A stretch of DNA of 64,000 bases from a virus (lineage: Duplodnaviria; Heunggongvirae; Uroviricota; Caudoviricetes): the IMG/VR virus record IMGVR_UViG_3300031134_000466; one strand, 5' to 3'. Both the position numbers and the translations under genes were made by a program. Below are positions 39,277 through 63,158 of the stretch, piece after piece (the stretch's first letter is position 1; every line of letters begins with the position of its first letter). A model generated the notes under the pieces. The model did no database searches. It saw only the letters and a list, made by a program, of their open reading frames with translations, and was not told where the DNA came from.

Positions 39277-39328
39277 ATTATGAAAGCCGACCCGACAGAA
39301 ATTCTTTGTCAGGTCGGCTTTCATAATT
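39276..39328. terminator. bidirectional hairpin
   Basis: 22-nt arms aattatgaaagccgacccgaca / tgtcaggtcggctttcataatt (1 mismatch). Confidence 0.8.
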
Positions 39329-42792: not shown

Positions 42793-44685
<1,893 letters not shown>

Positions 44686-49461: not shown

Positions 49462-49519
49462 CGATAGTAAAAAATAGACTTCCGGTAGACTTGAACTCTG
49501 CCTAACCAGATTTGGAACC

Positions 49520-50176
49520 ATGAGAATAGTAGTAGCTGATTGTTCAGTCATTTACACAGGAAGAGGAGACACCCGTCTTCCCCGAGCAGTCCGAGCGATC
49601 ATTGTCAAAGATGATGGTTCAATCTCAGTGCATAACGACAAAAGTAACAAACCTTTGAACTATATGGGTAAAGGTAACGAGCTTTCAGAAGTTGAGCTGG
49701 AAGATTGTAAACTATGGTTCTTTGACACAAGGCAAGAAAGTCTCCGCATTACTTTACATGAAGTTATTTCTGACACTGATTTCCTCCTTGATCGAAACGA
49801 TGAAGGACTGATCCGTGACGGCACAGAGAAGCAGCTGCAGGCTTGGTTAGCAGAGAACCCAGAAGCATTAGGTGAAGGCTATACTTTCGTTCAAAGAGAA
49901 TATCAGACAGGTGCAGGAGCTGTTGATTTGTTAGTCACTGACCCTGAAGGTAACCCTGTGGCGGTAGAAGTGAAACGAGTGGCCATGATTAACAGTGTGA
50001 GCCAGACACAACGTTATGTTGAGTCGATGAAAGAGGACCCTGAGTTTGCCAATACCACTGGCATTATCGCCGCTTTAGACATTCGACCTAACACTGTGAA
50101 GTTAGCGGACAAAAAGAAAATCCGCTGTGTCACTTTACCAACATGGTGGCGTGACCCAGCGGATACTTCAATGTAA
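49520..50176 (+). CDS. nucS: endonuclease NucS (EndoMS)
   Basis: 218 aa. 'MRIVVADCSVIYTGRGDTRLP', 'GAGAVDLLVTDPEGNPVAVEVKR', 'QTQRYVESM'. Confidence 0.9.
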   Translation: MRIVVADCSVIYTGRGDTRLPRAVRAIIVKDDGSISVHNDKSNKPLNYMGKGNELSEVELEDCKLWFFDTRQESLRITLHEVISDTDFLLDRNDEGLIRDGTEKQLQAWLAENPEALGEGYTFVQREYQTGAGAVDLLVTDPEGNPVAVEVKRVAMINSVSQTQRYVESMKEDPEFANTTGIIAALDIRPNTVKLADKKKIRCVTLPTWWRDPADTSM

Positions 50177-50177
50177 T

Positions 50178-50666
50178 TCAGCCGTCAAACTTTTCGACAT
50201 CTTGAGGTGCTACACGGTAAGCGTATTCTGTTTTTGCTGACAGGTAGTACACGTACAGCTTGTCAGTTTTGTCAGTACTGGTTTCCAGAATGTAATTACG
50301 TTTTGCATCTTCATCCAAGAACCCGTTCTGATTGTGAAGCATCTCAAGCGATTCTTCTTTTGTAAGGCCAAGATAAGAGTAGTTCTTGTCAAACCATTTC
50401 AAATAGCTTTTTTCTGAAATAGCTACTTTCTGTTGGGGCTGGAAGAATGAAATGTGCCAGAAGCTGAAACCGGCAGCTCCTACAAGAAGGAGAGTGAATA
50501 GCCAGGTCAGGATAACAGGAAGTTGCCTGATGGCAGGGATAATCATGCCCAGGATGAGTAACCCTGCTGGGATGAGGAGGAACCAGAAGTTGAAGTTCTC
50601 ATACCCAGATAGATCATGAGGAGGCAACCAACCAGTGAGGTCTTCCAGTGTGATGTCGTTGGGCAT
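50178..50666 (-). CDS. membrane protein
   Basis: 162 aa with two TM segments. AAGGAA RBS. Confidence 0.55.
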   Translation of the reverse strand: MPNDITLEDLTGWLPPHDLSGYENFNFWFLLIPAGLLILGMIIPAIRQLPVILTWLFTLLLVGAAGFSFWHISFFQPQQKVAISEKSYLKWFDKNYSYLGLTKEESLEMLHNQNGFLDEDAKRNYILETSTDKTDKLYVYYLSAKTEYAYRVAPQDVEKFDG

Positions 50667-50744
50667 GATTCTAATGTTCCTTAATCGTTGTCAGCTTTAT
50701 GAGCGGTCAAAGAATTCTATCATCAACGGCTAAAGCACATAGTA

Positions 50745-50774
50745 TTTGACAGCTGGCTGGGTTTCATGGTAAGT
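50745..50774 (+). promoter_or_regulatory. -35 TTGACA / 18 nt / -10 TAAGTT (TGGTAAGTT)
   Basis: Upstream of the Pnkp gene. Argues against the track's TTG 50774 start. Confidence 0.55.
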
Positions 50775-50800
50775 TGGAGTATCTTAAGTTAGGAAACAAA

Positions 50801-51706
50801 ATGTCACAGATAATGCGGATTCACCGTGGAGTGCAAGGCTCTGGTAAATCCACAGAAGCCATCCGTTGGGTGAACCAGGACCCGTTAAACCGTGCCCGTG
50901 TGAACCGTGATGACATTCGTCTCAGCCAGTTCGGCTCCTACGAGCTTCCTCAGGAACTCGAAGTTGCTGTTACCAAAGTAGAGCATGCCATCATCACCGC
51001 ACTTCTTGCTGCACGCAAAAGTGTTGTTGTTGACAATGTGAACCTGAAAGCCAAGTACGTTAAAGAGTACCTGCTTATTGCGGAGAAAGCCAACGTACCT
51101 GTTGTGCATCAGGACTTCCCTGTGGAGTTGGAGACAGCTCTTGCTCGTAACGCTGCTCGTGACCGTAAAGTCCCTGCACATGTGATTGAGACAACATTCA
51201 AGCGTTACATTCAGAGTGGCAAGTTCCCTCCGTTCCCCGTACTTGACTACGAAGCCGCTGCAGCAGGAATCTATGTTCCTGATGAGACTCTGCCTAAAGC
51301 TATCCTTTTGGATGTTGACGGCACAGCCATGAAGATGGGTTCACATCGTGGACCGTTTGACTGGCACAAAGTCATTGATGACGAGCCTAACCCGCCTGTT
51401 GTTGAAACAGTAAAAGCTTTGCATGCTCAGGGCTACAAAGTTGTTGTCATGTCTGGTCGTGATGAAGTCTGCAAAACAGACACGTTACTTTCTCTGGAAG
51501 TAGCTGGTGTTCCTGTGGATGAAATCTACATGAGACCCCACAACGATTACCGTAAAGACAACATCATCAAGCGTGAACTTTTTGATGCTCACATTCGGGA
51601 GCGTTTCAACATCCTGTTAGCTTTGGATGACCGGAACCAGGTTGTGGACGCTTACCGTCGTGAGCTGGGTCTTCCTGTCTTTCAGGTTGACTACGGAGAC
51701 TTCTAA
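50801..51706 (+). CDS. polynucleotide kinase-phosphatase (Pnkp): P-loop 5'-kinase + HAD 3'-phosphatase
   Basis: 'HRGVQGSGKST' and 'LLDVDGT', 'VVMSGRDE', 'ALDDRNQVV'. AGGAAA RBS. Confidence 0.8.
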   Translation: MSQIMRIHRGVQGSGKSTEAIRWVNQDPLNRARVNRDDIRLSQFGSYELPQELEVAVTKVEHAIITALLAARKSVVVDNVNLKAKYVKEYLLIAEKANVPVVHQDFPVELETALARNAARDRKVPAHVIETTFKRYIQSGKFPPFPVLDYEAAAAGIYVPDETLPKAILLDVDGTAMKMGSHRGPFDWHKVIDDEPNPPVVETVKALHAQGYKVVVMSGRDEVCKTDTLLSLEVAGVPVDEIYMRPHNDYRKDNIIKRELFDAHIRERFNILLALDDRNQVVDAYRRELGLPVFQVDYGDF

Positions 51707-51716
51707 GTCAGCATGA

Positions 51717-51753
51717 GTAAAGCCCCGAATCGTAACTTGATTCGGGGCTTTAC
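51717..51753. terminator. bidirectional hairpin
   Basis: 15-bp arms gtaaagccccgaatc / gattcggggctttac. Confidence 0.8.
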
Positions 51754-51757
51754 CTGT

Positions 51758-52729
51758 TTAAATTTCTCGCAGCTGCACAATTGTCAGTTCAGTTGCTTCA
51801 CCTTTTTTATTGACCCTTTTGACTTTCACATCATTAGCAACAACTTCGAATTTTGCACCACGAGGAATGATGAACTCATACTCTCTTGGACCTTGCGATG
51901 AAATAGCTGTGATTGGGGCTCCACTTTTTGTAAGAATCTGTAAAGAAACATTGATGTTGTCTTTGGAAGGTAAATCTTGAGGATTCAAACTTGTCGATAA
52001 GAAGAATTTAGGTTCGTAAGTGCTACCAACAGGGAAATGTTTGTCGAGGTTTTGAGCGTCATCACTTGAATGATATCCTTTTTCATCATAAAGATGATGA
52101 CGGCGGTAAACCATCACGCCTTCTTCTGCTGGTTCGTGTTTAGCAAAAGCATCATCCAGGATAGTTACAGCTGCATCCAACGTTTCAGGTGCAACATTTT
52201 TTGCGTACGGATTTGTTGAAGCTGAAAGATGGCCGTTGATGTCAGCATAGCCATCTTCTGAATACCAGCGAAGAGTAGCTATTTCAGTATCATCCAGTTT
52301 GGCACTCCAGTTTTGGGAATCTGCCATGCTGTTCAACAGGTCAGCATGTTTGTAATGCATCTCTTCAAGAGTGTCACCAGTTTCGAAAAACGTCGGAGAA
52401 GTGTAAGCAGCTTTTTGTGCTTTTTTGTGGGTGATGACTTTACGATCCGCAACAGCAGCTAATCTTCTGGCTCGTTCTTGAGAAAGCGCTTCGTATTCTT
52501 CTGCATGCCATTCCTGCGTTGGATTCTTTTTGATCTGTCTTTCCAAAGACTTTAGATAAGCTGGTGTTAGTTTGTACTCTGCTTCAGCTTTTCTTCTTAC
52601 CGCTATTAGCTTCTCAAGCTCTGGGTCTTTGCGGTTGTCCATGAAAGCACTGAGAACCGCTTGATGAGCTTTAGCGTAGGTGGCTGCAGCATGAGCTGAA
52701 CAACGGGGACCAGGTTTTGGGTAACACAT
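51758..52729 (-). CDS. R-S-ExE ADP-ribosyltransferase 3 with N-terminal C-x7-C-x2-H module
   Basis: 323 aa. 'MCYPKPGPRCSAHAA' is identical to the ART 2 N-terminus. 'VMVYRRH', 'LSTSLN', 'REYEFIIPRG'. Confidence 0.7.
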   Translation of the reverse strand: MCYPKPGPRCSAHAAATYAKAHQAVLSAFMDNRKDPELEKLIAVRRKAEAEYKLTPAYLKSLERQIKKNPTQEWHAEEYEALSQERARRLAAVADRKVITHKKAQKAAYTSPTFFETGDTLEEMHYKHADLLNSMADSQNWSAKLDDTEIATLRWYSEDGYADINGHLSASTNPYAKNVAPETLDAAVTILDDAFAKHEPAEEGVMVYRRHHLYDEKGYHSSDDAQNLDKHFPVGSTYEPKFFLSTSLNPQDLPSKDNINVSLQILTKSGAPITAISSQGPREYEFIIPRGAKFEVVANDVKVKRVNKKGEATELTIVQLREI

Positions 52730-52811
52730 GCTCCATTTCTAACAGCTTGACATCCCATCATTTATCCGATACTGTTGTTACTATACGAACCGAATAGCAG
52801 ATTGAGGTTAT

Positions 52812-53015
52812 ATGCCTGGAATGATGGCTTCCAACAAGAACCGTGCCGTGAACAACGTTGACAGCACTATGTTCGATGATGGTTTCTGGCAGCACCGACA
52901 CTTCAAAGGTAAGCGTCGCACTGGAGCTGCAACTGGTGGTCGCGGTTGGCGTCGAGCTCTTCGCAAGAAGGAGAAGCAGAGCGTCAAAAAGGACATCCGT
53001 AACGACGAAATGTGA
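52812..53015 (+). CDS. small highly basic protein
   Basis: 67 aa. GAGG lies 4 nt upstream and a terminator follows directly. The antisense 107-aa ORF runs through that hairpin, so I rejected it. Confidence 0.45.
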   Translation: MPGMMASNKNRAVNNVDSTMFDDGFWQHRHFKGKRRTGAATGGRGWRRALRKKEKQSVKKDIRNDEM

Positions 53016-53021
53016 ACTGTA

Positions 53022-53065
53022 AATAGGGTCAAAATCCTGATAAACTCAAGGATTTTGACCCTATT
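53022..53065 (+). terminator. hairpin terminator
   Basis: 17-bp arms aatagggtcaaaatcct / aggattttgaccctatt. Confidence 0.8.
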
Positions 53066-53068
53066 TTG

Positions 53069-53097
53069 TTGCTGGATACCGTGTTCTGTGGTAGACT
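53069..53097 (+). promoter_or_regulatory. -35 TTGCTG / 17 nt / -10 TAGACT (TGGTAGACT)
   Basis: 49-nt leader with an AAAGGG RBS before ATG 53147. Confidence 0.55.
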
Positions 53098-53146
53098 TGA
53101 GTAACATACAACGCAGCATCACACAGTTCACTGAAAGGGTTCCATT

Positions 53147-54028
53147 ATGACTACAAATTTAGGTTTCAGAGCTGAGGTCTCATACGACGCAGTGAAAGAT
53201 TTGACTCTCATGAGTTCATCATCTTCAGACTTCTCTTCTCCTCTTAACTTTGCCCTCACACGAGGTTCTGACGAGGACAAAGCCGTCAGGGCTCTCCTCG
53301 AAGACCAGGGACGAGTAGAATTCGTCAAGTCAGCGGTTTCTTTGAACAACCTTTCCCAGGTAGGTTCTTTCGGTGTTAGAACAGACGGTAATCCTTCCCG
53401 AGCTGACCTGGGTGTTCACAAGAACCTCACTATCGCAGGTAAAGATGGTTCAGGTGTTCTGAACTTCGTCAGAAACTATCTTCTTTGGGCTTACGCTACA
53501 AACACTCGAATCTATGCTGTGAACGCTCCAGCTGACATGTACGGTGCTGTGAATTACTTGCGTACTGACAAACTGGTTCGTATCGACTCAGGAGATGAGC
53601 CGAACATTGATTCCATCTGGAGTCAGTACGATGCTGATGTTGCTGCTGGTCGTCCTGTGCTTGTGTTGGTGAACAGCATTGGTGATATCGAAGACCAGGA
53701 TGAGGTGGTTGCAAGTTTCCTTGCCCATGTTGACACACGCAAGTTCGAAGTTTACGCTCTTTCTTTCTCAACATTCCAGGAAGAGCTTCCAGAAGACACT
53801 CATTACGAGAACTTCTTCTGGCGAGTTGGTGTTGACGCTGAGCACACTACAGGTTTCATTGGTGACACTCTTCCTGAGATTGCATCTTACATGATGAAAG
53901 AACATGTAGGAATTCCTCATGAGAACCCTCGTGGCGTGCTGTGGTTAAACAGAAATGCTGAGCGTTACGAACGAGTTATCACCTATGTGGTGCCTCGTCG
54001 TTTCTGGGAAGACAGCCTGAACTTCTGA
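53147..54028 (+). CDS. hypothetical protein (possible degenerate P-loop fold)
   Basis: 293 aa. 'IAGKDGSGVLNF' and 'VLVLVNSIGDIED' loosely resemble Walker A/B but lack the canonical GK[ST]. Confidence 0.5.
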   Translation: MTTNLGFRAEVSYDAVKDLTLMSSSSSDFSSPLNFALTRGSDEDKAVRALLEDQGRVEFVKSAVSLNNLSQVGSFGVRTDGNPSRADLGVHKNLTIAGKDGSGVLNFVRNYLLWAYATNTRIYAVNAPADMYGAVNYLRTDKLVRIDSGDEPNIDSIWSQYDADVAAGRPVLVLVNSIGDIEDQDEVVASFLAHVDTRKFEVYALSFSTFQEELPEDTHYENFFWRVGVDAEHTTGFIGDTLPEIASYMMKEHVGIPHENPRGVLWLNRNAERYERVITYVVPRRFWEDSLNF

Positions 54029-54037
54029 TTTCAGACA

Positions 54038-54085
54038 ATTGAGGGACCTGTGCTTGTAATTAAAGTGCAGGTCCCTCAATTTTTT
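54038..54085 (+). terminator. intrinsic terminator
   Basis: attgagggacctg / caggtccctcaat followed by tttttgt. Confidence 0.85.
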
Positions 54086-54121
54086 GTATTCTGCTGTCTG
54101 TTTCTTTGTTAGTAATAGGGC

Positions 54122-55363
54122 ATGTCAACTACAAGAAAACCTCCTTATCATCACAGCGATGGTACAAACTGCTGGACTAAAGATTGTTCGATCAGAGGCC
54201 GTGAAGATACAGAAAAAGCTGCTTTCTTCAAGCAAGTAGAAACAGCTGCTGAGACTGTTGTTCCAACCAATGAATTGCCTCCTCTGTCAGCTTTTCAGAA
54301 AGCCTATGATGATGGTCGCATTGAGTGCAGCCGCCACCCTGAACATCCTTATGTGACTTACAAGTATTCCAGAACAACTCAGTTTGCTTCTGACTGGGAT
54401 GATGTGACCTTAGCGTCTCGTGGTGTCATCTTCAATGAGGAGACAGGCGAGATTGTTGCTCGTCCATTTGCTAAGTTCTTCAACCATAACGAACCGTCAG
54501 TTCCCAGAGACAAATTACATGGCCGTATTAGTGTAACTGACAAGCTGGACGGTTCTTTAGGAATTGGTTATGTTGATGAGAACGGTAAGTTCAACATTGC
54601 AACCTCTGGAAGCTTTATCTCTGAACAGGCAAAACGTTCTACAGAGCTCTATCATGAGCGTTATGAAGGCAACTGGAAGCCAAATCCTAAGTTGACCTAC
54701 ATGTGGGAAATCATCTACCCAGAAAATCGTGTCGTGGTCAACTATGGCGATGAAGATGACTTGCATCTCATCGGTGCTGTCAACAAACGAACTGGTAAAT
54801 CAGTTCCGTTGCGTGACATCAAAGAATGGAAGTGGAAAAGAGCTGAAGAGTACAAAGACTTCTCCTCCTTGGATGCTGTTCTTCACTCTCCTGAAAGAGA
54901 AAACCGTGAAGGTTTCATTGTTCATTACATCGATACTGATACCCGCGTGAAATACAAGCATGCAGATTATCTTGAGCTCCATCGTAACCGTACTGGCGTG
55001 ACTTCCAAAACTATCTGGCGTAAAATGCGTATGGGTGAAGATATGGCAGGTTGGAAAGAGAACATGCCTGAAGAGTTCAGTGAGTTCGTATCCACTCGTC
55101 AAGCTAAAATCACTGCCGGATATAACAAAGAAATTGCCCAAATTACTGATGAGCATGGCACTTTCAAAGCAACTCTTCCTGCTGGTTATGACCGTAAGAC
55201 TTTTGCTACCACTTTGAAAAACTCACCTCTTGTACCAGCCGAAAACAAAGCTTTCGTCATGAACCTTGAGTTCAACGGCAGTGCTGTTGGAAGTGTTGTT
55301 CAATCTCATAAGATTTGGGACCGTGTGAAACCTGAGGACGAGAACACCTTGTGGAACATGTAA
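54122..55363 (+). CDS. ATP-dependent RNA ligase, paralog B (with Cys-containing N-terminal extension)
   Basis: 413 aa. 'TDKLDGSL', 'WEIIYPENRVVVNY', 'NREGFIVH', 'TRVKYK'. Collinear with paralog A. Confidence 0.75.
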   Translation: MSTTRKPPYHHSDGTNCWTKDCSIRGREDTEKAAFFKQVETAAETVVPTNELPPLSAFQKAYDDGRIECSRHPEHPYVTYKYSRTTQFASDWDDVTLASRGVIFNEETGEIVARPFAKFFNHNEPSVPRDKLHGRISVTDKLDGSLGIGYVDENGKFNIATSGSFISEQAKRSTELYHERYEGNWKPNPKLTYMWEIIYPENRVVVNYGDEDDLHLIGAVNKRTGKSVPLRDIKEWKWKRAEEYKDFSSLDAVLHSPERENREGFIVHYIDTDTRVKYKHADYLELHRNRTGVTSKTIWRKMRMGEDMAGWKENMPEEFSEFVSTRQAKITAGYNKEIAQITDEHGTFKATLPAGYDRKTFATTLKNSPLVPAENKAFVMNLEFNGSAVGSVVQSHKIWDRVKPEDENTLWNM

Positions 55364-55364
55364 T

Positions 55365-55652
55365 TCAAGTAAAGAGGTTCCACAAAAAGTCTCCGACCCC
55401 GAAGATAATAAAGAACAAGTTTATCATTAGAGCAGAAAAGAAAATTTTTTGCGAAACATTGGAGGCTTGACTTTGATTATCAATAAGATTACCAGCTCCA
55501 GCAAATAAGAGGACCAAACCCCACCAAGCCGCTCCCTTAAAAACAAAAATATAAATTACAGCCAGAACAACCAAGATAACATAATAAAACGCGGCAAAAT
55601 AAAGAAGTGCTTGAGTATCTTGTTGTTCTTCATTGGTAGAATTAGTTTTCAC
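55365..55652 (-). CDS. small membrane protein
   Basis: 95 aa, three hydrophobic segments, AT-rich. Confidence 0.5.
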   Translation of the reverse strand: MKTNSTNEEQQDTQALLYFAAFYYVILVVLAVIYIFVFKGAAWWGLVLLFAGAGNLIDNQSQASNVSQKIFFSALMINLFFIIFGVGDFLWNLFT

Positions 55653-55728
55653 CTTGGACCTCCTAATTTTAAATCGGCTGATTATTTTACGAATTGTACT
55701 GTAATTATAGTCATTCTGACGATAAAGA

Positions 55729-55737
55729 TGGTATGAT
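55729..55737 (+). promoter_or_regulatory. extended -10 (TGGTATGAT), near-leaderless operon promoter
   Basis: TATGAT lies 9 nt upstream of ATG 55747. Confidence 0.5.
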
Positions 55738-55746
55738 TAGGATGTT

Positions 55747-56412
55747 ATGAAGAACACATACGGAATTCTCGGCGGATATGGGGCGGTAGCCACCCTACAT
55801 CTCCAGCAGCTGCTCGTGAAGCGAGTCCTCAGCACTGGACAGTACGCTGATATTGCCTTCCCTCGTATGGTAATTTCCAATCTGCCTGAAGACATCATCA
55901 ATGCTGAAGGACATATCAGCAGCCTTGGTAGCCTGCGGACTGAACTTGGTAAAACAGCTCCTCTATTCCAAGGAGCCACAGATGTTTATGTCATTTGTAA
56001 CACCTTCCATGTCGAAGAAGAGTTCATGCAGCGAGTCTTCGCTAACAAACTACATTCTGTTCCGGCTTTAACCAGTCAAGCTGTCGTAGATGCTGGATAC
56101 TCCAAACCTCTTATCGTAGGTTCCAAGCTGACTTCTCAGGATAACCTGTACAGTCATACAGCTTACACCTCAACTAACATGTTTGCGGATGAGCTAATCA
56201 CTGCTGGAATGAAGTACCAGACATCTCACTCTCAGCTGGCAGATGTCATAGCTGCTGCCAAACAGGCTAGCTCAGACTGCATTGTTTTAGGTTGCACAGA
56301 TTTGTCCGTGATGGCTGACACTCTCCGAACCATGACTGCACTTCCCGTAATCGACTCCGTTGAAGCAGTCGCCAACCATATTTACAACTCCCATACGAAA
56401 GATGAATCGTGA
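55747..56412 (+). CDS. Asp/Glu/hydantoin racemase-superfamily enzyme (two-Cys type)
   Basis: 221 aa. 'YGILGGYGAVAT', 'VYVICNTFH', 'IVLGCTDLS', 'PVIDSV'. Confidence 0.75.
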   Translation: MKNTYGILGGYGAVATLHLQQLLVKRVLSTGQYADIAFPRMVISNLPEDIINAEGHISSLGSLRTELGKTAPLFQGATDVYVICNTFHVEEEFMQRVFANKLHSVPALTSQAVVDAGYSKPLIVGSKLTSQDNLYSHTAYTSTNMFADELITAGMKYQTSHSQLADVIAAAKQASSDCIVLGCTDLSVMADTLRTMTALPVIDSVEAVANHIYNSHTKDES

Positions 56413-57374
56413 AAGTCTACAACGACACAGTAACCATGACTGCAGAGCTGGCTCAGACCTTAGAGCAATTGAGAGCTGTGCGGGCTTTTGACGCTACAGA
56501 ATGGATTGAGCGTAAGGTTGTCCTAATCAACCAGTACTTCGCTCAGAACAAGCTCTCAGGGGCTGTAGTAGGTGTTTCTGGTGGCATCGACTCAGCTGTA
56601 GCCCTTTCACTTCTTGTCAAAGCATCCCAGCAAGACAACAGCCCAATTCAGAAGATTGTCCCTCTTCTACTTCCTGCTCTTTCTTACGAAGGTGCAACTA
56701 ACCAAGACGGGGCAGTTCAGCAGGCTACTGACCTATGCCAGAACCTTGGACTGAAGCCAGCTGTTTTCACTAAGCTCACATCTCTTTCCCAAGTGATTAC
56801 TTCTGAACTGGAAGACATTCTGGACATCAAATCAACAGACTGGGCTAAAGGACAGCTAGTGGCTTACACCAGAACCCCAGTCCTGTACAACACCTGCTCA
56901 ATCCTTACTGACGCCGGCTACCCTGCACTGGTTGTAGGAACCACAAACCTTTCCGAAGGTGGATACCTCGGTTATGTCGGAAAAGCTTCAGATGGTATGG
57001 TTGACCTGCAAGTAATTTCTGATTTGTACAAGTCAGAAGTGTACAAAGTCGCAGCTTTACTTGAAGTTCCTGAAAGCGTTATGAAAGCTACTCCTACAGG
57101 GGACATGTACGACGGTCGTGAAGATGAAACAGTTTTCGGAGCTTCTTACGACTTCGTAGAGCTGTTTCATCTATGGCTACAGGCACGCAGCGTCCCATTG
57201 AAACTTCTTCGAGATGCCCACTTTGTCACAGGAGCTAAAAACCTGCAAAAACTGCACGACTACAACGCACATAAGTACACCTACGGAACTCCATCCATTC
57301 ACCTGGACATTATGAACGCAGCAATCCCAAACGGATGGAACAATCAGCCTTGGAGGCCCCAGAATGGCAACTAA
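56409..57374 (+). CDS. divergent NadE-family PP-loop amidotransferase (NAD or NMN synthetase-like)
   Basis: 321 aa. 'GVSGGIDSAV', 'VVGTTNLSEGGYLGYVGKASDGMVD', 'ATPTGDMY..EDETVFGASYDFVE'. GTGA overlap with the upstream stop codon. Confidence 0.7.
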   Translation: MKVYNDTVTMTAELAQTLEQLRAVRAFDATEWIERKVVLINQYFAQNKLSGAVVGVSGGIDSAVALSLLVKASQQDNSPIQKIVPLLLPALSYEGATNQDGAVQQATDLCQNLGLKPAVFTKLTSLSQVITSELEDILDIKSTDWAKGQLVAYTRTPVLYNTCSILTDAGYPALVVGTTNLSEGGYLGYVGKASDGMVDLQVISDLYKSEVYKVAALLEVPESVMKATPTGDMYDGREDETVFGASYDFVELFHLWLQARSVPLKLLRDAHFVTGAKNLQKLHDYNAHKYTYGTPSIHLDIMNAAIPNGWNNQPWRPQNGN

Positions 57375-58104
57375 ATTCGTAAACCAAGTCAACTTCGAAA
57401 TCCCTACTGTTGCTCACACAGTTCAAGTGAGACCGTTCCCTGAACTTGACCGTACAGCGGTAGTGATTCCTGAACTCGTCCCTGCCGAGGAAAAAGTCAG
57501 TATCATGGCAGCGTTGGAAGACTCCAACTGGCAGCCAGTGTCAGTGACAGGAATGTCAGGAAACTGGAAAGAAGGTGACCCTATTGGTTCTTACCGTGCT
57601 TCCAACTACACTCCTGAGTATGCTGAAGTTCTGTGGAACAGAATCAAACACGGTTTCCCTACTGTACGCACATTCACAGATGCTGATAACACCGACTTCG
57701 ATGGTCATGAGCTGTGGGAACCCATTGGCGTGTCACCTCTTCTTCGATTCATCAAATATGAAGAAGGCGGCTGGCTTGTAGTTCATTACGATGCTCCGTA
57801 TGTCGAATCAGAAGATGTTCGCACACTCCAAAGCCTTGTCGTATATCTGGAACACCCAGGTGAACTTCACGGAGGAGCAACCCGCTACCTTCATGACCCT
57901 CAGGCTCATCTTCCTGTTACTCAGCGTGAACTCAACGACGAATACCGTGCTGCTGAAGAAGATGAAGTGAGACTCCGCTTCGCTCCTGAAGATGGAACAG
58001 CTGTAGTCTTCGACCACCGCCTTCTGCATGACGCTGAAAAGGTCACAGGAACTGGCACAAAAACAATCATTCGAACAGACATTATGTACAGGAAAGTACG
58101 ATGA
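57364..58104 (+). CDS. 2OG-Fe(II) oxygenase (P4H-like)
   Basis: 246 aa. 'VVHYDAP' (HxD), 'VVFDHRLLHDAE' (distal His), 'KTIIRTDIMY'. 11-nt overlap with the upstream gene. Confidence 0.65.
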   Translation: MATKFVNQVNFEIPTVAHTVQVRPFPELDRTAVVIPELVPAEEKVSIMAALEDSNWQPVSVTGMSGNWKEGDPIGSYRASNYTPEYAEVLWNRIKHGFPTVRTFTDADNTDFDGHELWEPIGVSPLLRFIKYEEGGWLVVHYDAPYVESEDVRTLQSLVVYLEHPGELHGGATRYLHDPQAHLPVTQRELNDEYRAAEEDEVRLRFAPEDGTAVVFDHRLLHDAEKVTGTGTKTIIRTDIMYRKVR

Positions 58105-59624
58105 ATTTAGACAGATACTTCCAGGCTCTTTACGAAAGAACCAATAGTAAGCAGGACTTAGTAACAGCAGGTTGGATTGAAAACAAGCCGCTACGCATCA
58201 ACCCGCATGTGCGATTCTACACAACCCCTCTGCAAGCTATTCGTGACGCGGGCAAAAAGGACGTATCTGTCTTGTTCTACCCTGGTTGTTTCGCTCCAGT
58301 CCATGAAGGTCACCTTGGGGCTATGAGGCTGGCCAAAGAAGCAATTGAAACCCAGACAGGCGAGACTGTAGCTGCAGGCTATTTCACCCCTGACCATGAT
58401 AACTACATCATGCGTAAAACTCATGACGAACGTTTCATCGCACCTAACCGCATCGCTCTTCTCCATGAAGCAGTAGAAAATGAACCCTGGATGCAGGTGG
58501 ACGACTGGGCTTCACTGTACGCTCCCACTGATTTGAACTTCACAACACTATATGACAGGTTCAACCTTTACCTGAAGCGTTGGTTACCTGACTTGAACAT
58601 CAAGCTGTACATGGTTTTTGGTGGAGACAACTACATGTTTGCGAACAGTTTCACTGAATACGGACACGGTGTTTGTGTGCCAAGAGAAGGAGCTCAGATG
58701 GACTTGAGCTTAGTTCACCCTGATGCCAAAAAGCGGGTTATTTTCAGCGAAAAAGTCTGTACAGACCATTCTTCTACAGCTGCACGAGCAGCAAACCCTG
58801 GAGCTATCGATATCCACGGCAGAAGTGCATTAGGTTCCACCTATGTACTTCGTGAAGACTTGGACTTAGCTTTCCGAGAGAACCCTACTACTTACTCGAA
58901 CAAAATTATTGCTGACTCTGTAGCTATTCTTTTGCAGGCGCATGTGCCGTACGAGAAAGTCAAAGTGAAAAGAGTTCCCATTATCAGGCAGATGGCTAAC
59001 CATACTGAGACAGAGAATGTGATTTCCTTAGACTGTTTCTGGAAAGCAGAGCAGAACCTTGAAATTTCTCGCCTGTTTTCAACTGGAGGCAGTCAGCACC
59101 ATGCCATCAAATACGTCAACCGTCCTGGCTCGCCGGCTCTTCAAGAGCAGGTAGAAGCAATTCCTGCTGGAGTGTACACTCTCGTAGATGATGACATTGC
59201 TACTGGGGAGACAATGAGTTTTGTTTCCAACATGCTGGAAACGCACGATGTTGTTGTTGATAAGCAGGACAGCCTGATTTCCGAGCTGGGTTCTGACTTG
59301 TACGATGTAGTTGATTTGCGAGACTTTGTTCTTGGAACCGAACACGGCGGACTGACGGTTGCAACTCCTACAGGAGAAACGACAAGAATGCCTTACATCG
59401 CTCCTTATGTGAATCTTGTAAGCCGTGCTCGCATTAACCCTGACCGGGTGTTCAGTTTCTCCACCGAACTGTGGAAATTGAACTATGCACTTTACCGTAA
59501 TACGAAAACTACAGTAGGTGACATCAAAGAACATCAGGACTTCACCATGTTCGGTTTTGCCGAAGACATGACAGTGGCTGACTTGTGCCAAAAGCATCTT
59601 CAATTGATGACTGAATTGCAGTAA
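58101..59624 (+). CDS. NadD/NMNAT-type adenylyltransferase fused to a type I phosphoribosyltransferase domain
   Basis: 507 aa. 'GCFAPVHEGHL' ((H/T)xGH), 'HSSTAAR' (SxTxxR), C-terminal PRPP-binding loop 'YTLVDDDIATGETM'. ATGA overlap with the upstream gene. Confidence 0.75.
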   Translation: MNLDRYFQALYERTNSKQDLVTAGWIENKPLRINPHVRFYTTPLQAIRDAGKKDVSVLFYPGCFAPVHEGHLGAMRLAKEAIETQTGETVAAGYFTPDHDNYIMRKTHDERFIAPNRIALLHEAVENEPWMQVDDWASLYAPTDLNFTTLYDRFNLYLKRWLPDLNIKLYMVFGGDNYMFANSFTEYGHGVCVPREGAQMDLSLVHPDAKKRVIFSEKVCTDHSSTAARAANPGAIDIHGRSALGSTYVLREDLDLAFRENPTTYSNKIIADSVAILLQAHVPYEKVKVKRVPIIRQMANHTETENVISLDCFWKAEQNLEISRLFSTGGSQHHAIKYVNRPGSPALQEQVEAIPAGVYTLVDDDIATGETMSFVSNMLETHDVVVDKQDSLISELGSDLYDVVDLRDFVLGTEHGGLTVATPTGETTRMPYIAPYVNLVSRARINPDRVFSFSTELWKLNYALYRNTKTTVGDIKEHQDFTMFGFAEDMTVADLCQKHLQLMTELQ

Positions 59625-59641
59625 GATGATAGACATGATGC

Positions 59642-60238
59642 ATGCTTGAAATACTTACAGCGGTAGGTCTTGCTTTAGCGGCAGGGTTGAACGCTTACAT
59701 TCCTCTGATTGCTGTCAGTTTGTTATCAAAGTTCACTGATTTTTTCACTCTTCCAGGAAACTGGTCATGGATGGAAGACAACTGGACATTAGCGATCTTG
59801 ATTGCTTTAGCTTTAGTAGAGTTCTTTGCTGACAAAATAGCTGCAGTTGACTCGTTGAATGATGTCATCCAAACAGCAGTCCGTCCAACATCAGGCGGAT
59901 TGCTGTTTGCTGCAGGTACCCATGTAACAGATGTTCCTGTGACTCAGATTAGTAATTTTGTGAGTTCTCCAGGCTTTCCTATGTTCATCATTGGTTTGAC
60001 TGTTGCTTTGCTTCCTCATTTGATGAAGATGTTCATCAGGCCGCTTATTAACGCAACGATGAGTGGAATGGTGACACCCATTGTCAGTTTTGGTGAAAAC
60101 ATTCTTACAGTAGGTTTGGTTGCTATGGCTATATTCATTCCAGTGCTGGTACCAGTAGCAGTAATACTGGTCATTGTTATAGGAGTACGGATTTTCCGAA
60201 ACCTCACCGCGAAAAAGAGTAAAACAGCAACAGCCTGA
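59642..60238 (+). CDS. DUF4126-like membrane protein
   Basis: 198 aa. 'EFFADKIAAVDSLNDVIQTAVRPTSGG' and about 5 TM segments. 17 nt after the upstream stop codon. Confidence 0.6.
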   Translation: MLEILTAVGLALAAGLNAYIPLIAVSLLSKFTDFFTLPGNWSWMEDNWTLAILIALALVEFFADKIAAVDSLNDVIQTAVRPTSGGLLFAAGTHVTDVPVTQISNFVSSPGFPMFIIGLTVALLPHLMKMFIRPLINATMSGMVTPIVSFGENILTVGLVAMAIFIPVLVPVAVILVIVIGVRIFRNLTAKKSKTATA

Positions 60239-60246
60239 AGTTGTTC

Positions 60247-60255
60247 CGATAGACT
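60247..60255 (+). promoter_or_regulatory. -10 element (CGATAGACT)
   Basis: 75-nt leader with an AAAGGAG RBS before ATG 60331. Confidence 0.5.
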
Positions 60256-60330
60256 GAGTTAGCATGCTTAGCATGTCTGCCCTGGCAGTAAACCAGTTTA
60301 TTCGATTTAGACAACAAAGGAGTACCTATC

Positions 60331-61548
60331 ATGGTGCAAAAACCAGAACGCGGGCGTTACTTAGAGCTTGAAGGTGTACGTGTTTCGTATAAACACAAAG
60401 ATGATTCCATCCACCTCACAGCAACAGACCCAGATGTTCCTCAGATAAACATCACCCTAAACAAAGGGACAGCGACAGAAGATTCGCTTAGAGATTTGCT
60501 CGTAGAGTACGGTTTAATTAGAGAATCAGAGTCTAATGCTGTTACCGAAATGGAACCTATCCCATATTACGCGGGTAACCCATTCTCAGCATTGCTGGCA
60601 GAATCACATATCCCGTCAGACAGAGCCAAGAACATTCTTCTTACAGGACAGCCAGGTTCAGGTAAAACCGTGGCCGCATCCTATGCAGCATTTCTTGCAC
60701 AAGGAATGAACATGCCTACTTTCGTCATGGGGCTTGCAGTTGACTATCTGAAAACGCTCAATGAAGACACCCAGGTTCTGATGCTGACAAAAATGGAATC
60801 AGGCTACCTGAATCCATTCAAAACAAAAATGTCAACAGAGCAGATTCTTCACTTTATCAACACTTTGACACTTCCAAGAGATGCTTACTATCAAGCACGA
60901 GCAAACCAGACGATAACAACACTCATCAAACAACAGTATGAAACTAAGCAGCCTTCATTGACTGGACTGCTACAAGTAATCAGCAAGTATGAAGAACTCC
61001 AATATGAAACAGCTGCTCTTTCCCATTTGGGTCTTAGCCCTGTAGGAGCTCCATTCTTTGGATACTCAGAGAACGTATTAGTGATTGATCCTGACAAGGA
61101 TTATGTCTTTGATGCCGCTGAAGTTCCGCTTGTAGCACCAGTAGAAGCATTGGACACTACTCAGGCAAGACAGAACACTGCAATCATTCAAGCAGTGTTC
61201 CATTTTGTTAGACAGCATTCACGACCAAGTAGTCAACCAAAAATGCTGATTGTCGACGGGAGGAATTACCAGTATGTTACTGAACTGAACCAGCTCAGTA
61301 GGTTAGCCCGAAGCCTAAATTTGGTTATGCTCACAGTAGGTGAACTTGAAGAAAATAACAGTCAATACTCTGACTTCATGGCTTACCGCTCTTCAACCGC
61401 AGAGACATCTGAACTTTTTGGTAAAAGGCTTGACACGCTTTCTTCAGGTCAATCTTATTGGAGAAACGAAGACGGAGAGGTCTTCTTTGTCCCTCGACCT
61501 ACCCTTCCAGCATCGTTTGCAAGAATTTTTGACACAATACCCAGATAA
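60331..61548 (+). CDS. P-loop NTPase (HerA/FtsK/VirB4-like?)
   Basis: 405 aa. Walker A 'GQPGSGKT', Walker B-like 'KMLIVDG'. The family assignment is tentative. Confidence 0.5.
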   Translation: MVQKPERGRYLELEGVRVSYKHKDDSIHLTATDPDVPQINITLNKGTATEDSLRDLLVEYGLIRESESNAVTEMEPIPYYAGNPFSALLAESHIPSDRAKNILLTGQPGSGKTVAASYAAFLAQGMNMPTFVMGLAVDYLKTLNEDTQVLMLTKMESGYLNPFKTKMSTEQILHFINTLTLPRDAYYQARANQTITTLIKQQYETKQPSLTGLLQVISKYEELQYETAALSHLGLSPVGAPFFGYSENVLVIDPDKDYVFDAAEVPLVAPVEALDTTQARQNTAIIQAVFHFVRQHSRPSSQPKMLIVDGRNYQYVTELNQLSRLARSLNLVMLTVGELEENNSQYSDFMAYRSSTAETSELFGKRLDTLSSGQSYWRNEDGEVFFVPRPTLPASFARIFDTIPR

Positions 61549-62238: not shown

Positions 62239-62268
62239 TCACAAAAACGTGCTTTTTCGTCAATATGA

Positions 62269-62277
62269 CGATATACT
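62269..62277 (+). promoter_or_regulatory. -10 element (CGATATACT)
   Basis: 35-nt leader with an AAGGAAGG RBS before ATG 62313. Confidence 0.5.
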
Positions 62278-62312
62278 GTAATAAGAATGGTCTAAGGAAG
62301 GAAACCCGTATC

Positions 62313-63158
62313 ATGACCAAGCTCCAGAAACAGATTATTAACACTCTTGGGGTAAAACCCGTCATCAATGCCGAACAGGAGCTACGCACTCGTGTAGATT
62401 TCCTCAAAGACTTCACCCGTAATGCTGGCACCAGAGGATTTGTACTTGGAATCAGTGGTGGACAGGACTCTGCTCTTGCCGGCTACATTGCACAGACAGC
62501 TGTCCGTGAACTCCGCGACGAGACGGGTGAGAACTACCAGTTCTTAGCTCTTCTTCTTCCTTACGGGACTCAGAAAGACGCTGATGATGCAATCACCATC
62601 GCCCGTGACTTCATCAAGGCTGACCAGGTAATTGAGTACAACATCAAGCCTGCAGTGGATGCTTTCACTGACCAGTACAATGACATCGCTGGCTGGTCAG
62701 GCGATGAAGCTGATAACCTCAGCGATTACCATAAAGGTAACGTCAAAGCCCGCACCCGTGCCGTAACACAGTACGCTTACGCTGGTACCCATCAGCTGCT
62801 TGTTGTAGGTACAGACCATGCTGCTGAGGCAGTATCAGGCTTCTTCACCAAGTTCGGTGACGGTGCAGCTGACGTTCTCCCTTTGAGCGGTTTGAACAAA
62901 CGTCAGGGCAAAGAGCTTCTTCGCTTGGCAGGTGCTCCCGAGTTCGTCATCACCAAAGCTCCCACAGCGGACCTTCTGGACAACAAAGCAGGTCAGGCTG
63001 ATGAGACTGAGCTGGGTATTACATACGATGTTCTTGACGACTACCTTGAAGGTAAAGATGTCAATGTAGTTGCAGCTCAGAAAATTGAACTGCGTTACCT
63101 GATGACAGAACACAAGCGTCAACTCCCAGTTGACCCTGCAGCAACATGGTGGAAGTGA
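62313..63158 (+). CDS. nadE: NH3-dependent NAD+ synthetase (canonical NadE)
   Basis: '[10 protein letters not shown]', 'NVKARTR', '[24 protein letters not shown]', '[27 protein letters not shown]'. Confidence 0.9.

What the first reader, a model, noticed from the sequence alone, without database searches (positions are those of the whole stretch)
55747..60238. Translationally coupled five-gene operon that could build or tailor a pyridine dinucleotide: racemase-like / divergent NadE / 2OG oxygenase / NadD::type-I-PRT / DUF4126
Seen in sequence:
- Five ORFs follow one near-leaderless promoter (TGGTATGAT, 55729-55737).
- They are joined by a GTGA overlap at 56409-56412, an 11-nt overlap at 57364-57374, an ATGA overlap at 58101-58104 and a 17-nt gap.
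- Motifs are a two-Cys Asp/Glu-racemase fold (CNT.., GCTD), a PP-loop NadE (SGGIDS), an HxD..H oxygenase, an adenylyltransferase (HEGH, SSTAAR) and a type I PRT loop (VDDDIATGET).

Established knowledge:
- PRT + NaMN/NMN adenylyltransferase + NadE is formally a Preiss-Handler-like route from base + PRPP + ATP to NAD+.
- The known nicotinate and nicotinamide PRTs (PncB, NadV/Nampt) are type II enzymes, not type I.
- The published phage NAD+ reconstitution pathways use other enzyme sets: NARP1 uses Adps+Namat and NARP2 uses Nampt+Nmnat.

Inference: this may be a third, undescribed phage route to NAD+. Because of the oxygenase and the racemase/isomerase-like enzyme, it could instead make a modified NAD-like dinucleotide. 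Either product could feed the four NAD+-consuming transferases in this window or counter host NAD+-depleting immunity. The DUF4126 membrane protein could import the base; this is pure speculation.
Basis: partly seen in the sequence, partly recalled or inferred. Interest (0 to 1): 0.85.

Follow-up and report, generated by a model that had tools for sequence, protein, structure and literature searches.

The report
Undescribed NAD-type dinucleotide synthesis module
This operon carries a widespread but unstudied enzyme set that probably builds NAD or a close relative from a base, PRPP and ATP, using an unusual phosphoribosyltransferase and an oxygenase partner that no known NAD pathway has.

Summary
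The five co-directional, overlapping ORFs and their motifs are real.

Only part of the operon is conserved. Across about 61 unique loci that carry the NadE-like gene, the invariant unit has three parts:
- a divergent NadE-like amidoligase;
- an NMNAT fused to a divergent type I PRT-like domain;
- exactly one oxidative or radical enzyme: a P4H-type 2OG oxygenase, or one of two radical-SAM(-like) families in Clostridia and CPR loci. Never both.

Fusions tie the parts together: NadE-like+oxygenase in one protein in an alphaproteobacterial MAG, and all four domains in one ORF in Legionella shakespearei (1,118 aa) and Paraliomyxa.

NrtR, the NAD-regulon regulator, flanks the module in CPR bacteria, a gammaproteobacterial MAG and Leptospira.

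The racemase is a recurrent accessory. DUF4126 occurs only in the window's closest relatives.

The window also encodes a canonical NadE, two or three ADP-ribosyltransferases and a PARP.

The PRT-like domain family has about 1,150 clusters. RefSeq calls the fusion "hypothetical", and I found no paper describing the module. NARP1, NARP2 and NARP3 use other enzymes.

Best reading: an NAD-type dinucleotide pathway with an obligatory, unexplained oxidative step. The base and the product are unresolved.

The parts
55708..55737 (+). Promoter-like site: TAGTCA, 18-nt spacer, TG-extended TATGAT
   Evidence: the only + strand sigma-70-like match in 55300-60450, 9 of 12 positions with TG. Consensus match only; function not shown. 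A divergent promoter-like site on the - strand overlaps it (55722-55693).
55747..56412 (+). Asp/Glu-type two-cysteine racemase-like enzyme (221 aa); a recurrent accessory gene of the module
   Evidence: PF01177 38.8 bits (cutoff 31); NCBIfam CuyB and asp_race about 50 bits, below their cutoffs. CNT(84) and GCTD(182) catalytic motifs present. The same position is occupied by a racemase in L004, L006, L043, L052, L064, L065, L068 (86 bits; asp_race 116 bits) and the Variovorax plasmid. It is absent from the closest relative, L002.
56409..57374 (+). Divergent NH3-type NadE-like PP-loop amidoligase (321 aa); core component
   Evidence: PF02540 110 bits and TIGR00552 107.6 bits. SGGIDS PP-loop present. 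Best PDB matches are short NadEs: 2e18 at 67 bits and 3fiu (Francisella) at 65 bits. Only 27% identical to the canonical NadE of the same window. Lies directly upstream of the fusion gene in 58 of about 64 unique loci.
57364..58104 (+). P4H/PKHD-type Fe(II)/2-oxoglutarate oxygenase (246 aa); core component, replaced by radical SAM(-like) enzymes elsewhere
58101..58826 (+). N-terminal NMNAT/NaMNAT-type adenylyltransferase domain of the 507-aa fusion (residues 1-242)
   Evidence: PF01467 35.7 bits. TIGR00482 37.9 bits, below its cutoff of 112. Matches eukaryote-type NMNATs 9iw1 and 1kqn over residues 39-140, including the W-x-x-VD-x-W segment. GxFxPxHxGH and SSTxxR are invariant in the family.
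58827..59624 (+). C-terminal divergent type I phosphoribosyltransferase-like domain (residues 243-507) with a family-specific helical extension
59642..60238 (+). DUF4126 multi-pass membrane protein (198 aa); lineage-specific passenger or accessory
   Evidence: PF13548 153 bits. Several hydrophobic 19-mer windows. Found next to the module only in L001-L003.
62265..63158 (+). Context: canonical NH3-dependent NAD synthetase (NadE), 2 kb downstream
   Evidence: PF02540 221.6 bits. 335 bits to B. anthracis NadE 2pz8. Also present near the module in L002 and L004.

Best explanation
The core of the finding is a conserved three-gene, four-domain module. It most likely builds a pyridine (NAD-type) dinucleotide from a base, PRPP and ATP.

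Proposed steps:
1. The C-terminal type I PRT-like domain of the 507-aa protein joins a pyridine-carboxylate-type base to PRPP. This is inferred from the fold and the intact PRPP loop.
2. The fused N-terminal NMNAT-type domain adenylylates the resulting mononucleotide with ATP. This is inferred from homology and intact motifs.
3. The NadE-like PP-loop enzyme adenylates and amidates the carboxylate with ammonia. This is inferred from homology.
4. The P4H-type 2OG oxygenase works as an obligate partner of the NadE-like enzyme on the same substrate or its precursor. The obligate co-occurrence and the fusions are shown here. The chemistry is unknown. My preferred guess is that it generates or unmasks the pyridine carboxylate from a precursor other than free nicotinate.

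Radical SAM(-like) enzymes appear to take over the oxidative role in Clostridia and CPR loci. The Asp-type racemase is a recurrent accessory. DUF4126 is a local add-on.

In this huge-phage-like genome the output, NAD+ or a very close analogue, would supply its ADP-ribosyltransferases and PARP and offset NAD+ depletion. A canonical NadE nearby shows that the divergent NadE-like enzyme is not a simple duplicate.
For: Domain identities.

Functional coupling:
- The NadE-like gene lies directly upstream of the fusion gene in 58 of about 64 unique loci.
- Each of those 58, plus 3 annotated plasmid loci, carries exactly one oxidative partner: 2OG oxygenase (27+3), radical SAM type A (23) or radical-SAM-like type B (8). 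None carries two.
- Six loci without the NadE-like gene also lack any oxidative enzyme.
- Fusions: NadE-like+oxygenase as one 590-aa protein in L007; NadE-like+oxygenase+NMNAT+PRT as one uninterrupted 1,118-aa ORF in Legionella shakespearei, followed by a CN-hydrolase gene (the glutaminase fold of Gln-dependent NadE); and a 1,483-aa ORF in Paraliomyxa. Further 1,048-1,198-aa family members exist.

Link to NAD:
- NrtR (Nudix + NrtR_WHD) regulators lie next to the module in Collierbacteria, Shapirobacteria, a gammaproteobacterial MAG and Leptospira interrogans. NrtR controls NAD synthesis genes and responds to ADP-ribose (PMC2330246).
- A perfect 21-bp palindrome precedes the Leptospira operon.

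Demand for NAD in this genome: two clear ADP-ribosyltransferases, one weak one, and a WGR+PARP protein in the window.

The same racemase-nadE-2OG-fusion gene order occurs on a Variovorax megaplasmid.
Against: - All known nicotinate, nicotinamide and quinolinate PRTs are type II (established knowledge).
- The NMNAT domain scores below the NCBIfam equivalog cutoff (37.9 against 112).
- No known NAD route needs a 2OG oxygenase or a radical SAM enzyme, so step 4 has no precedent.
- Genomes that carry the module often also encode a canonical NadE (window, L002, L004) or PncB (L006). That argues against plain NAD+ synthesis from nicotinate.
- NrtR-family regulators also control some non-NAD loci (PMC2330246), and the Leptospira palindrome lacks the common GT-N7-AC core.
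- Type B radical-SAM assignment is weak for the CPR members (Pfam E 0.004-0.03). It rests on a Cx4Cx2C motif and on homology to the L015 member, which scores 44.6 bits.
- The aerobe/anaerobe interpretation rests on taxonomy alone.
Confidence: 0.5

Rival explanations
1. The module makes a tailored NAD analogue, not NAD+. The PRT and NMNAT domains and the NadE-like enzyme assemble a dinucleotide. The oxygenase (or a radical SAM enzyme in anaerobes) hydroxylates or otherwise oxidises the base or a ribose. The product could be a cofactor or substrate that resists or inhibits host NADases, a private ADP-ribosyl donor, or a signal.
For: - An oxidative or radical enzyme is an obligatory, often fused, part of the module. 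No route to authentic NAD+ needs one.
- A canonical NadE (and PncB in L006) coexists with the module, suggesting a non-redundant product.
- Radical SAM type A has weak MoaA and viperin similarity, and both of those act on NTP riboses.
- The Legionella locus adds a SAM methyltransferase, a PhyH dioxygenase and an ATP-grasp ligase, which look like tailoring enzymes.
- The Leptospira copy sits beside a TIR-domain protein and an Abi gene.
Against: - NrtR linkage and presence in minimal CPR genomes fit housekeeping NAD supply better.
- The radical SAM similarities are generic and far below family cutoffs.
- No natural NAD analogue of this kind is known to me.
Confidence: 0.22
2. It is an ordinary, redundant Preiss-Handler-type salvage route: nicotinate to NaMN to NaAD to NAD+. 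A type I PRT stands in for PncB. The oxygenase has no catalytic role in the pathway; it could be a regulatory protein hydroxylase or an O2/2OG sensor, or unrelated.
For: - PRT + NaMN adenylyltransferase + NadE is formally complete.
- Jumbo phages are already known to carry pncB-nadD-nadE clusters and multiple backup NAD routes (PMC11662467, PMC7824862).
- The oxygenase's closest folds are protein prolyl/lysyl hydroxylases.
- NrtR adjacency.
Against: - A dispensable or regulatory partner would not show 61 of 61 co-occurrence with the NadE-like gene, strict mutual exclusivity with two radical SAM(-like) families, or fusion into the same polypeptide.
- Six loci keep the fusion without any NadE-like gene, so the fusion's product does not always need amidation.
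- A canonical NadE lies next door.
Confidence: 0.13
3. The module is not about pyridine nucleotides. The PRT-like domain is a purine, pyrimidine or other-base salvage enzyme or a ComF-like protein. The set makes a different carboxamide-bearing nucleotide or dinucleotide, or modifies a protein or peptide.
For: - The best fold and profile matches are adenine, orotate and hypoxanthine PRTs and ComF.
- Small ORFs of 84-135 aa are interleaved in some loci.
- ATP-grasp ligases recur in six loci.
- The oxygenase fold is typical of protein hydroxylases.
Against: - The fused domain matches NMNAT/NaMNAT specifically, both in PDB hits and in TIGR00482 (61 bits in the CPR member).
- The partner is NadE-like rather than QueC-, GuaA- or asparagine-synthetase-like.
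- NrtR adjacency in four lineages.
- The small ORFs are not conserved across the loci.
Confidence: 0.1

Closest known systems
Preiss-Handler pathway (PncB, NadD, NadE), including pncB-nadD-nadE clusters of jumbo phages (PMC11662467)
   Same: It has the same formal logic: a base is phosphoribosylated with PRPP, adenylylated by an NMNAT-family enzyme, and amidated by a NadE-family PP-loop enzyme. NrtR-type regulation is plausible.
   Different: The PRT is a divergent type I fold, not the type II PncB, and is fused to the adenylyltransferase. The NadE is a separate clade, 27% identical to the canonical NadE in the same window. An oxidative or radical enzyme is an obligatory fourth activity. A racemase often accompanies the module.
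NARP2 (Nampt + Nmnat) phage NAD+ reconstitution
   Same: A PRT step followed by an NMNAT step, carried by phages, plausibly to counter NAD+ depletion. The fusion-only jumbo-phage loci (L013, L014, L016-L019) would resemble a one-protein NARP2 if the base were nicotinamide.
   Different: There is no Nampt (type II) homologue. A NadE-like enzyme and an oxygenase are present. The module is also widespread in cellular genomes.
NARP1 (Adps + Namat)
   Same: It uses a type I PRT/PRPP-synthetase-fold protein in NAD+ rebuilding. NrtR responds to ADP-ribose, which is NARP1's substrate.
NARP3 (PnuC + NadR; PMC13464706)
   Same: A bifunctional NMNAT-containing fusion enzyme next to a membrane protein.
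   Different: The partner domain is PRT-like, not a ribosylnicotinamide kinase. The membrane protein is DUF4126, not PnuC, and is not conserved with the module.
Francisella route (NaMN to NMN by the NadE-family NMN synthetase, then NadM)
   Same: The operon's NadE-like enzyme groups with short NadEs, including the Francisella enzyme 3fiu (65 bits). The adenylyltransferase resembles NMN-accepting eukaryote-type NMNATs.
   Different: The similarity is low. No specificity determinants were tested here, and the Francisella route has no oxygenase or type I PRT.
Glutamine-dependent NAD synthetase (CN-hydrolase::NadE fusion)
   Same: A NadE domain is fused or adjacent to a helper enzyme. In Legionella a CN-hydrolase gene directly follows the mega-fusion.
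   Different: The helper fused here is a 2OG oxygenase placed C-terminal to the NadE-like domain, which has no precedent.

Membership tests
NadE / NAD synthetase (PF02540, TIGR00552) | PP-loop SGGxDS and a NadE-family profile match above the curated cutoff | tested here: met
   SGGIDS at residue 57. PF02540 110 bits (cutoff 21). TIGR00552 107.6 bits (cutoff 63.65).
NadE / NAD synthetase (PF02540, TIGR00552) | Full-length equivalog-level match and NaAD as substrate | tested here: not met
   The equivalog models score below their cutoffs: NF010587 122 against 255, NF001979 74 against 250. Identity to the canonical NadE of the same window is 27%. The substrate cannot be tested with these tools.
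NMNAT / NadD (TIGR00482, HIGH nucleotidyltransferases) | GxFxPxHxGH and ISSTxxR motifs | tested here: met
   GCFAPVHEGH (62) and SSTAAR (224). G62, F64, P66, H68, G70, H71, S225 and R229 are invariant in 31 sequences.
NMNAT / NadD (TIGR00482, HIGH nucleotidyltransferases) | Score above the equivalog cutoff | tested here: not met
   TIGR00482 37.9 bits against a cutoff of 112; the CPR member scores 61.4. PDB NMNAT1 and NMNAT3 hits have E around 1e-3.
Type I phosphoribosyltransferases (PF00156) | PRPP-binding loop: hydrophobic strand, two acidic residues, then xxTGxT | tested here: met
   YTLVDDDIATGET. D363-D365 and G369 are invariant. The loop aligns to the APRT PRPP loop.
Type I phosphoribosyltransferases (PF00156) | Profile match at the family threshold, and the core fold | tested here: inconclusive
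Type II pyridine PRTs (PncB, Nampt/NadV, NadC) | NAPRTase/QRPTase TIM-barrel-like catalytic domain | tested here: not met
   None of the five products has a Pfam or NCBIfam match to these families, and the fold search gives type I only.
Fe(II)/2OG oxygenases, P4H/PKHD type (PF13640) | HxD...H facial triad, a basic residue for 2OG, and the double-stranded beta-helix fold | tested here: met
Asp/Glu racemase superfamily (PF01177) | Two catalytic cysteines in CxT and GCT[DE] motifs, and a profile match | tested here: met
   C84 (CNT) and C183 (GCTD). PF01177 38.8 bits (cutoff 31). Substrate not testable.
NARP1 | PRPS-like Adps plus Nampt-like Namat | tested here: not met
NARP2 | Nampt (type II PRT) plus Nmnat | tested here: not met
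   An Nmnat-like domain is present, but Nampt is absent.
NARP3 | PnuC transporter plus NadR (NMNAT + RNK) | tested here: not met
   No PnuC or RNK domain. The membrane protein is DUF4126. The definition is taken from PMC13464706.
NrtR regulon (NAD metabolism) | An NrtR gene adjacent and an NrtR operator upstream | tested here: inconclusive
   NrtR is adjacent in L045, L064, L065, L068 and L070, but no NrtR gene was found next to the module in the window. A 21-bp perfect palindrome lies upstream of the Leptospira operon but lacks the GT-N7-AC core.

The most novel reading that the evidence does not exclude
The module is a previously unrecognised branch of pyridine-nucleotide biochemistry in which an O2-dependent oxygenase, or a radical SAM enzyme in anaerobes, is an integral catalytic step. 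There are two versions. Either it makes a chemically modified NAD, for example a hydroxylated or oxidised base or ribose, that phages and bacteria use as an NADase-resistant or NADase-inhibiting cofactor or ADP-ribosyl donor. Or it is a new route that makes the pyridine carboxylate from a non-niacin precursor through a type I PRT.
Probability: 0.45. Interest if true: 0.92.

Novelty: new variant of a known kind. Interest (0 to 1): 0.8.

Why it matters
NAD biosynthesis is considered one of the most completely mapped cofactor pathways, and NAD+ supply is now a central battleground between phages and bacterial immunity.

This is a module of about 1,150 sequence clusters found in huge phages, CPR bacteria, Clostridia, Myxococcota, Legionella, Leptospira, Streptomyces and Variovorax. 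It combines a type I PRT-like enzyme with NMNAT and a private NadE, and always with an oxygenase or a radical SAM(-like) enzyme.

If it makes NAD+, the result is a new salvage or de novo branch, the first type I pyridine PRT, and an explanation for NAD supply in some reduced genomes. If it makes an analogue, the result is a new natural dinucleotide with obvious relevance to NADase-based immunity (TIR, SIR2, Thoeris) and its evasion.

It also turns several RefSeq 'hypothetical proteins' in culturable organisms into directly testable enzymes.

Tried and rejected
- **Phage collection searches.** Megablast and tblastn of the operon, the fusion, its C-terminal domain and a divergent jumbo-phage version against INPHARED phages found nothing meaningful. 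No cultured-phage copy could be examined. The one BFVD structural match, a 212-aa protein of Acinetobacter phage vB_AbaM_ME3, could not be located by sequence.
- **AFDB Foldseek** was unavailable.
- **NARP1, NARP2 and NARP3 membership** was rejected on enzyme content.
- **DUF4126 as an integral importer** was rejected as a module feature, because it occurs only in L001-L003.
- **Five-gene synteny as the conserved unit** was rejected.
- **LarE, QueC and other PP-loop families** for the NadE-like enzyme give only PP-loop-level hits of 14-21 bits.
- **Relatedness of the two radical SAM types** was not shown. tblastn found no cross-hits, and my hhalign run gave no significant match and may have been set up poorly.
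- **Radical SAM type A and 'x386' against PDB** by sequence gave nothing.
- **NrtR operator test.** Only the Leptospira and L064 upstream regions show clear palindromes; the CPR intergenic regions gave none at my settings.
- **Unavailable records.** The Sorci 2009 Francisella paper and the GenBank CP106993.1 record were not held.
- **PHROGs on ten window ORFs** gave no structural-protein evidence, so the viral nature of the window is not demonstrated here.
- **Canonical NAD genes in CPR genomes.** I could not test whether the CPR genomes lack canonical pncB, nadD and nadE, because only +/-8 kb is held for each locus.

Full report
**1. The observation**

| ORF | Length | Junction with the previous ORF |
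|---|---|---|
| 55747-56412 | 221 aa | first gene |
| 56409-57374 | 321 aa, GTG start | GTGA overlap |
| 57364-58104 | 246 aa | 11-nt overlap |
| 58101-59624 | 507 aa | ATGA overlap |
| 59642-60238 | 198 aa | 17-nt gap |

All quoted motifs are present, and profile searches agree:
- Asp_Glu_race, 38.8 bits
- NAD_synthase, 110 bits
- 2OG-FeII_Oxy_3, 34 bits
- CTP_transf_like with weak NMNAT hits
- DUF4126, 153 bits

A TG-extended -10 promoter-like site at 55708-55737 is the only + strand hit in the region. An AGGA motif 4-5 nt before the first ATG leaves 'leaderless' unsettled. No convincing terminator follows DUF4126.

**2. The unassigned half of the 507-aa protein**

- Residues 39-140 align with eukaryote-type NMNATs (9iw1, 1kqn).
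- Residues 243-507 have no Pfam hit.
- I collected 44 homologues, aligned them (A1) and cut out the C-terminal domain (A2).
- Its profile hits APRT, ComF, HPRT, PRPP synthetase and OPRT only on the PRPP loop, with E from 0.02 to 1.
- 14 of 26 members weakly hit PF00156.
- An AlphaFold model is confident (pLDDT 93.2, pTM 0.90).

So this is a divergent type I PRT-like domain with a family-specific helical extension. It belongs to no known purine, pyrimidine or ComF family.

An exhaustive profile search finds 1,151 50%-identity clusters (525 at E<=1e-30). Nearly all carry the domain at the C-terminus of 500-640-aa proteins, and a few are 1,048-1,198 aa long.

**3. The other enzymes**

- **NadE-like enzyme.** It is a real NadE-family member. 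It is only 27% identical to a canonical, Bacillus-like NadE encoded 2 kb downstream at 62265-63158, which scores 221.6 bits in Pfam and 335 bits to 2pz8. Its best solved relatives are short NadEs, including the Francisella enzyme 3fiu.
- **Racemase-like protein.** It keeps both catalytic cysteines.

**4. Synteny**

Context look-ups and scans of IMG/VR and GTDB genomes gave 69 loci, and PLSDB gave three more. I called components by tblastn and then by iterative HMMs on all ORFs.

- After removing duplicates, the NadE-like gene lies directly upstream of the fusion in 58 of about 64 unique loci.
- Every one of those 58, plus the three plasmid loci, has exactly one oxidative partner:
  - the 2OG oxygenase in 27+3;
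  - a 291-aa radical SAM enzyme that overlaps the NadE-like start in 23 (CxxxCxxC in 23 of 23; Clostridia MAGs and human-gut viral contigs);
  - a second, 337-386-aa radical-SAM-like family in 8 (PF04055 44.6 bits in L015; invariant Cx4Cx2C plus four more cysteines; CPR and a few others).
- No locus has two kinds of oxidative partner.
- The six jumbo-phage loci that lack the NadE-like gene also lack any oxidative enzyme. They carry instead a conserved 202-aa gene of unknown function.

The taxa fit an aerobic/anaerobic split, but that is an inference from taxonomy.

**5. Fusions**

- In an alphaproteobacterial MAG, the NadE-like enzyme and the oxygenase are one 590-aa protein.
- In cultured Legionella shakespearei DSM 23087, one uninterrupted 1,118-aa ORF contains NadE-like, oxygenase, NMNAT-like (GGFCPIHEEH) and PRT-like (LVDDDSFTGET) domains. 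It is followed by a CN-hydrolase gene, the fold that supplies ammonia in Gln-dependent NadE.
- Paraliomyxa miuraensis has a 1,483-aa version.

These fusions, together with the co-occurrence rule, show that the four activities belong to one process.

**6. Accessory genes**

- The Asp-type racemase recurs in about 11 of 61 loci. These include huge-phage relatives, Collierbacteria (86 bits; asp_race above its cutoff) and a Variovorax megaplasmid whose racemase-nadE-2OG-fusion order is the same as in the window. It is missing from the closest relative, L002.
- DUF4126 accompanies the module only in L001-L003.
- ATP-grasp ligases recur in six loci.
- Legionella adds a methyltransferase and a PhyH dioxygenase.

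**7. The link to NAD**

- NrtR regulators (Nudix + NrtR winged helix) lie next to the module in Collierbacteria, Shapirobacteria, a gammaproteobacterial MAG and Leptospira interrogans. The Leptospira protein is 42% identical to the CPR NrtR, and its gene heads the operon.
- NrtR represses NAD synthesis and salvage genes and is released by ADP-ribose (PMC2330246).
- A perfect 21-bp palindrome precedes the Leptospira operon, but it lacks the usual GT-N7-AC core. It is therefore only suggestive.
- The window itself encodes two clear ADP-ribosyltransferases, a weak third one and a WGR+PARP protein, so demand for NAD is plausible.
- The Leptospira copy sits beside a TIR-domain protein, an Abi gene and an integrase.

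**8. Interpretation**

The shared logic of base + PRPP, then adenylylation, then amidation makes an NAD-type dinucleotide the most economical product. I commit to that reading with confidence 0.5. It is the fused PRT and NMNAT domains, the NadE homology and the NrtR adjacency that make it the most economical.

A plain Preiss-Handler reading fails on three observations:
- the obligatory oxidative partner;
- the coexistence of a canonical NadE (and PncB in L006);
- the fusion-only loci.

Two readings remain that I cannot separate:
- The oxidative enzyme makes or unmasks the pyridine carboxylate from a non-niacin precursor.
- It tailors the nucleotide, giving an NAD analogue.

The base specificity of the PRT-like domain cannot be read from these data.

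**9. Comparison with the literature**

- NARP1 (Adps+Namat) and NARP2 (Nampt+Nmnat) use different enzymes, as does the recently named NARP3 (PnuC+NadR, PMC13464706).
- Jumbo-phage NAD clusters described so far are nadV/nadM/nadR or pncB-nadD-nadE (PMC7824862, PMC9503650, PMC11662467).
- Full-text searches for the combination found nothing.
- RefSeq annotates the fusion as 'hypothetical protein' in Leptospira, Variovorax, Streptomyces and Paenibacillus.

I therefore rate it a new variant of a known kind, an NAD-type nucleotide pathway, with a substantial chance of new chemistry.

**10. Caveats**

- Nothing here is biochemical.
- The viral nature of the window is inferred from gene content and from huge relatives' contigs. 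No structural genes were seen, and 8 of 10 ORFans have no PHROG.
- The type B radical-SAM assignment is weak for the CPR members.
- Many 'genome' loci are MAG contigs that could be mis-binned mobile elements. The Legionella, Paraliomyxa, Leptospira, Variovorax, Streptomyces and Paenibacillus copies come from isolates.

Noticed in passing
window 26372-27676 (+): A 434-aa protein with a WGR domain and a PARP catalytic domain (PF00644, 102.7 bits), which is a eukaryote-style poly(ADP-ribose) polymerase architecture in a phage-like genome.
   Followed up: no
window 30500-31465 (+), 51758-52729 (-), 28539-29579 (+): Two clear ADP-ribosyltransferase exoenzyme-type proteins (57 and 74.6 bits) and a weak third (19.9 bits, below cutoff).
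   Followed up: partly
window 62265-63158 (+): A canonical Bacillus-like NH3-dependent NadE (335 bits to 2pz8) lies 2 kb downstream of the divergent NadE-like gene. The pair is conserved in L002 and L004.
   Followed up: yes
window 18430-21147 (+): A 905-aa ORF combines a dNMP-kinase-like N-terminus, a Hint/intein segment and a C5 cytosine DNA methylase. It is probably an intein-interrupted methylase fusion.
   Followed up: no
window 39328-40449 (-), 48134-55363: An RNA-repair-type cluster: two Rnl1-type RNA ligases (54122-55363 and 39328-40449), PNKP (50774-51706), NucS (49520-50176), an Exo_endo_phos nuclease and RNase H. It sits immediately upstream of the module and is conserved in relatives.
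   Followed up: partly
window 42826-44685, 41294-42706, 2847-4235: A full-length DnaK/Hsp70 (772 bits), a protein with an LPXTG-like anchor motif and a DUF285 repeat protein. Together with the Bacillus-like NadE these suggest a Gram-positive host.
   Followed up: no
L002 (ENA ERZ27247405 k141_830180) and hit tables: The window's closest relatives sit on contigs of 780-880 kb (878,479 bp for L002; 782-883 kb for the oxygenase homologues). That is larger than the 735-kb phage cited as the largest in PMC11662467. Whether these are phages, plasmids or tiny cells was not examined.
   Followed up: no
L059 6234-9590 (Legionella shakespearei NZ_KB892416.1); L058 5235-9686 (Paraliomyxa miuraensis): Single ORFs of 1,118 aa and 1,483 aa contain all four catalytic domains. 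The Paraliomyxa protein has an extra N-terminal region of about 320 aa with no family match. The Legionella locus adds CN-hydrolase, SAM methyltransferase, PhyH dioxygenase and ATP-grasp genes.
   Followed up: partly
L070 8709-12252 (Leptospira interrogans p1 NZ_CP043881.1): The NrtR-nadE-2OG-fusion operon is immediately followed by an HNH endonuclease, a TIR-domain protein, a 'phage abortive infection' protein and an integrase, which is a defence-island or mobile-element setting.
   Followed up: no
L008 10058-10678, L009 10445-11050, L013-L019: A conserved gene of about 202 aa ('y202') with no family match accompanies the fusion gene in ten loci. These include all six jumbo-phage loci that lack both the NadE-like gene and the oxidative enzyme.
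   Followed up: partly
L008 8758-10050 (Paenibacillus thiaminolyticus plasmid NZ_CP106993.1): In this 431-aa family member the NMNAT HxGH motif is degenerate (ATVHYGF), while the PRT-like loop (LLIEDDMPTGQNT) is kept. The adenylyltransferase half may therefore be inactive there.
   Followed up: no
BFVD A0A172Q0R7 (Acinetobacter phage vB_AbaM_ME3): This is the only significant viral structural match to the PRT-like domain: a stand-alone 212-aa uncharacterised protein (Foldseek E 2e-8, TM 0.65). I could not find it by tblastn, so its context was not examined.
   Followed up: partly
window 36527-37519, 31548-32480, 12332-13324, 21882-23186: Other cargo in the window: an ArsP-type permease, an SPFH/Band 7 protein, a ribonucleotide reductase small subunit and an O-antigen-ligase-like membrane protein.
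   Followed up: no
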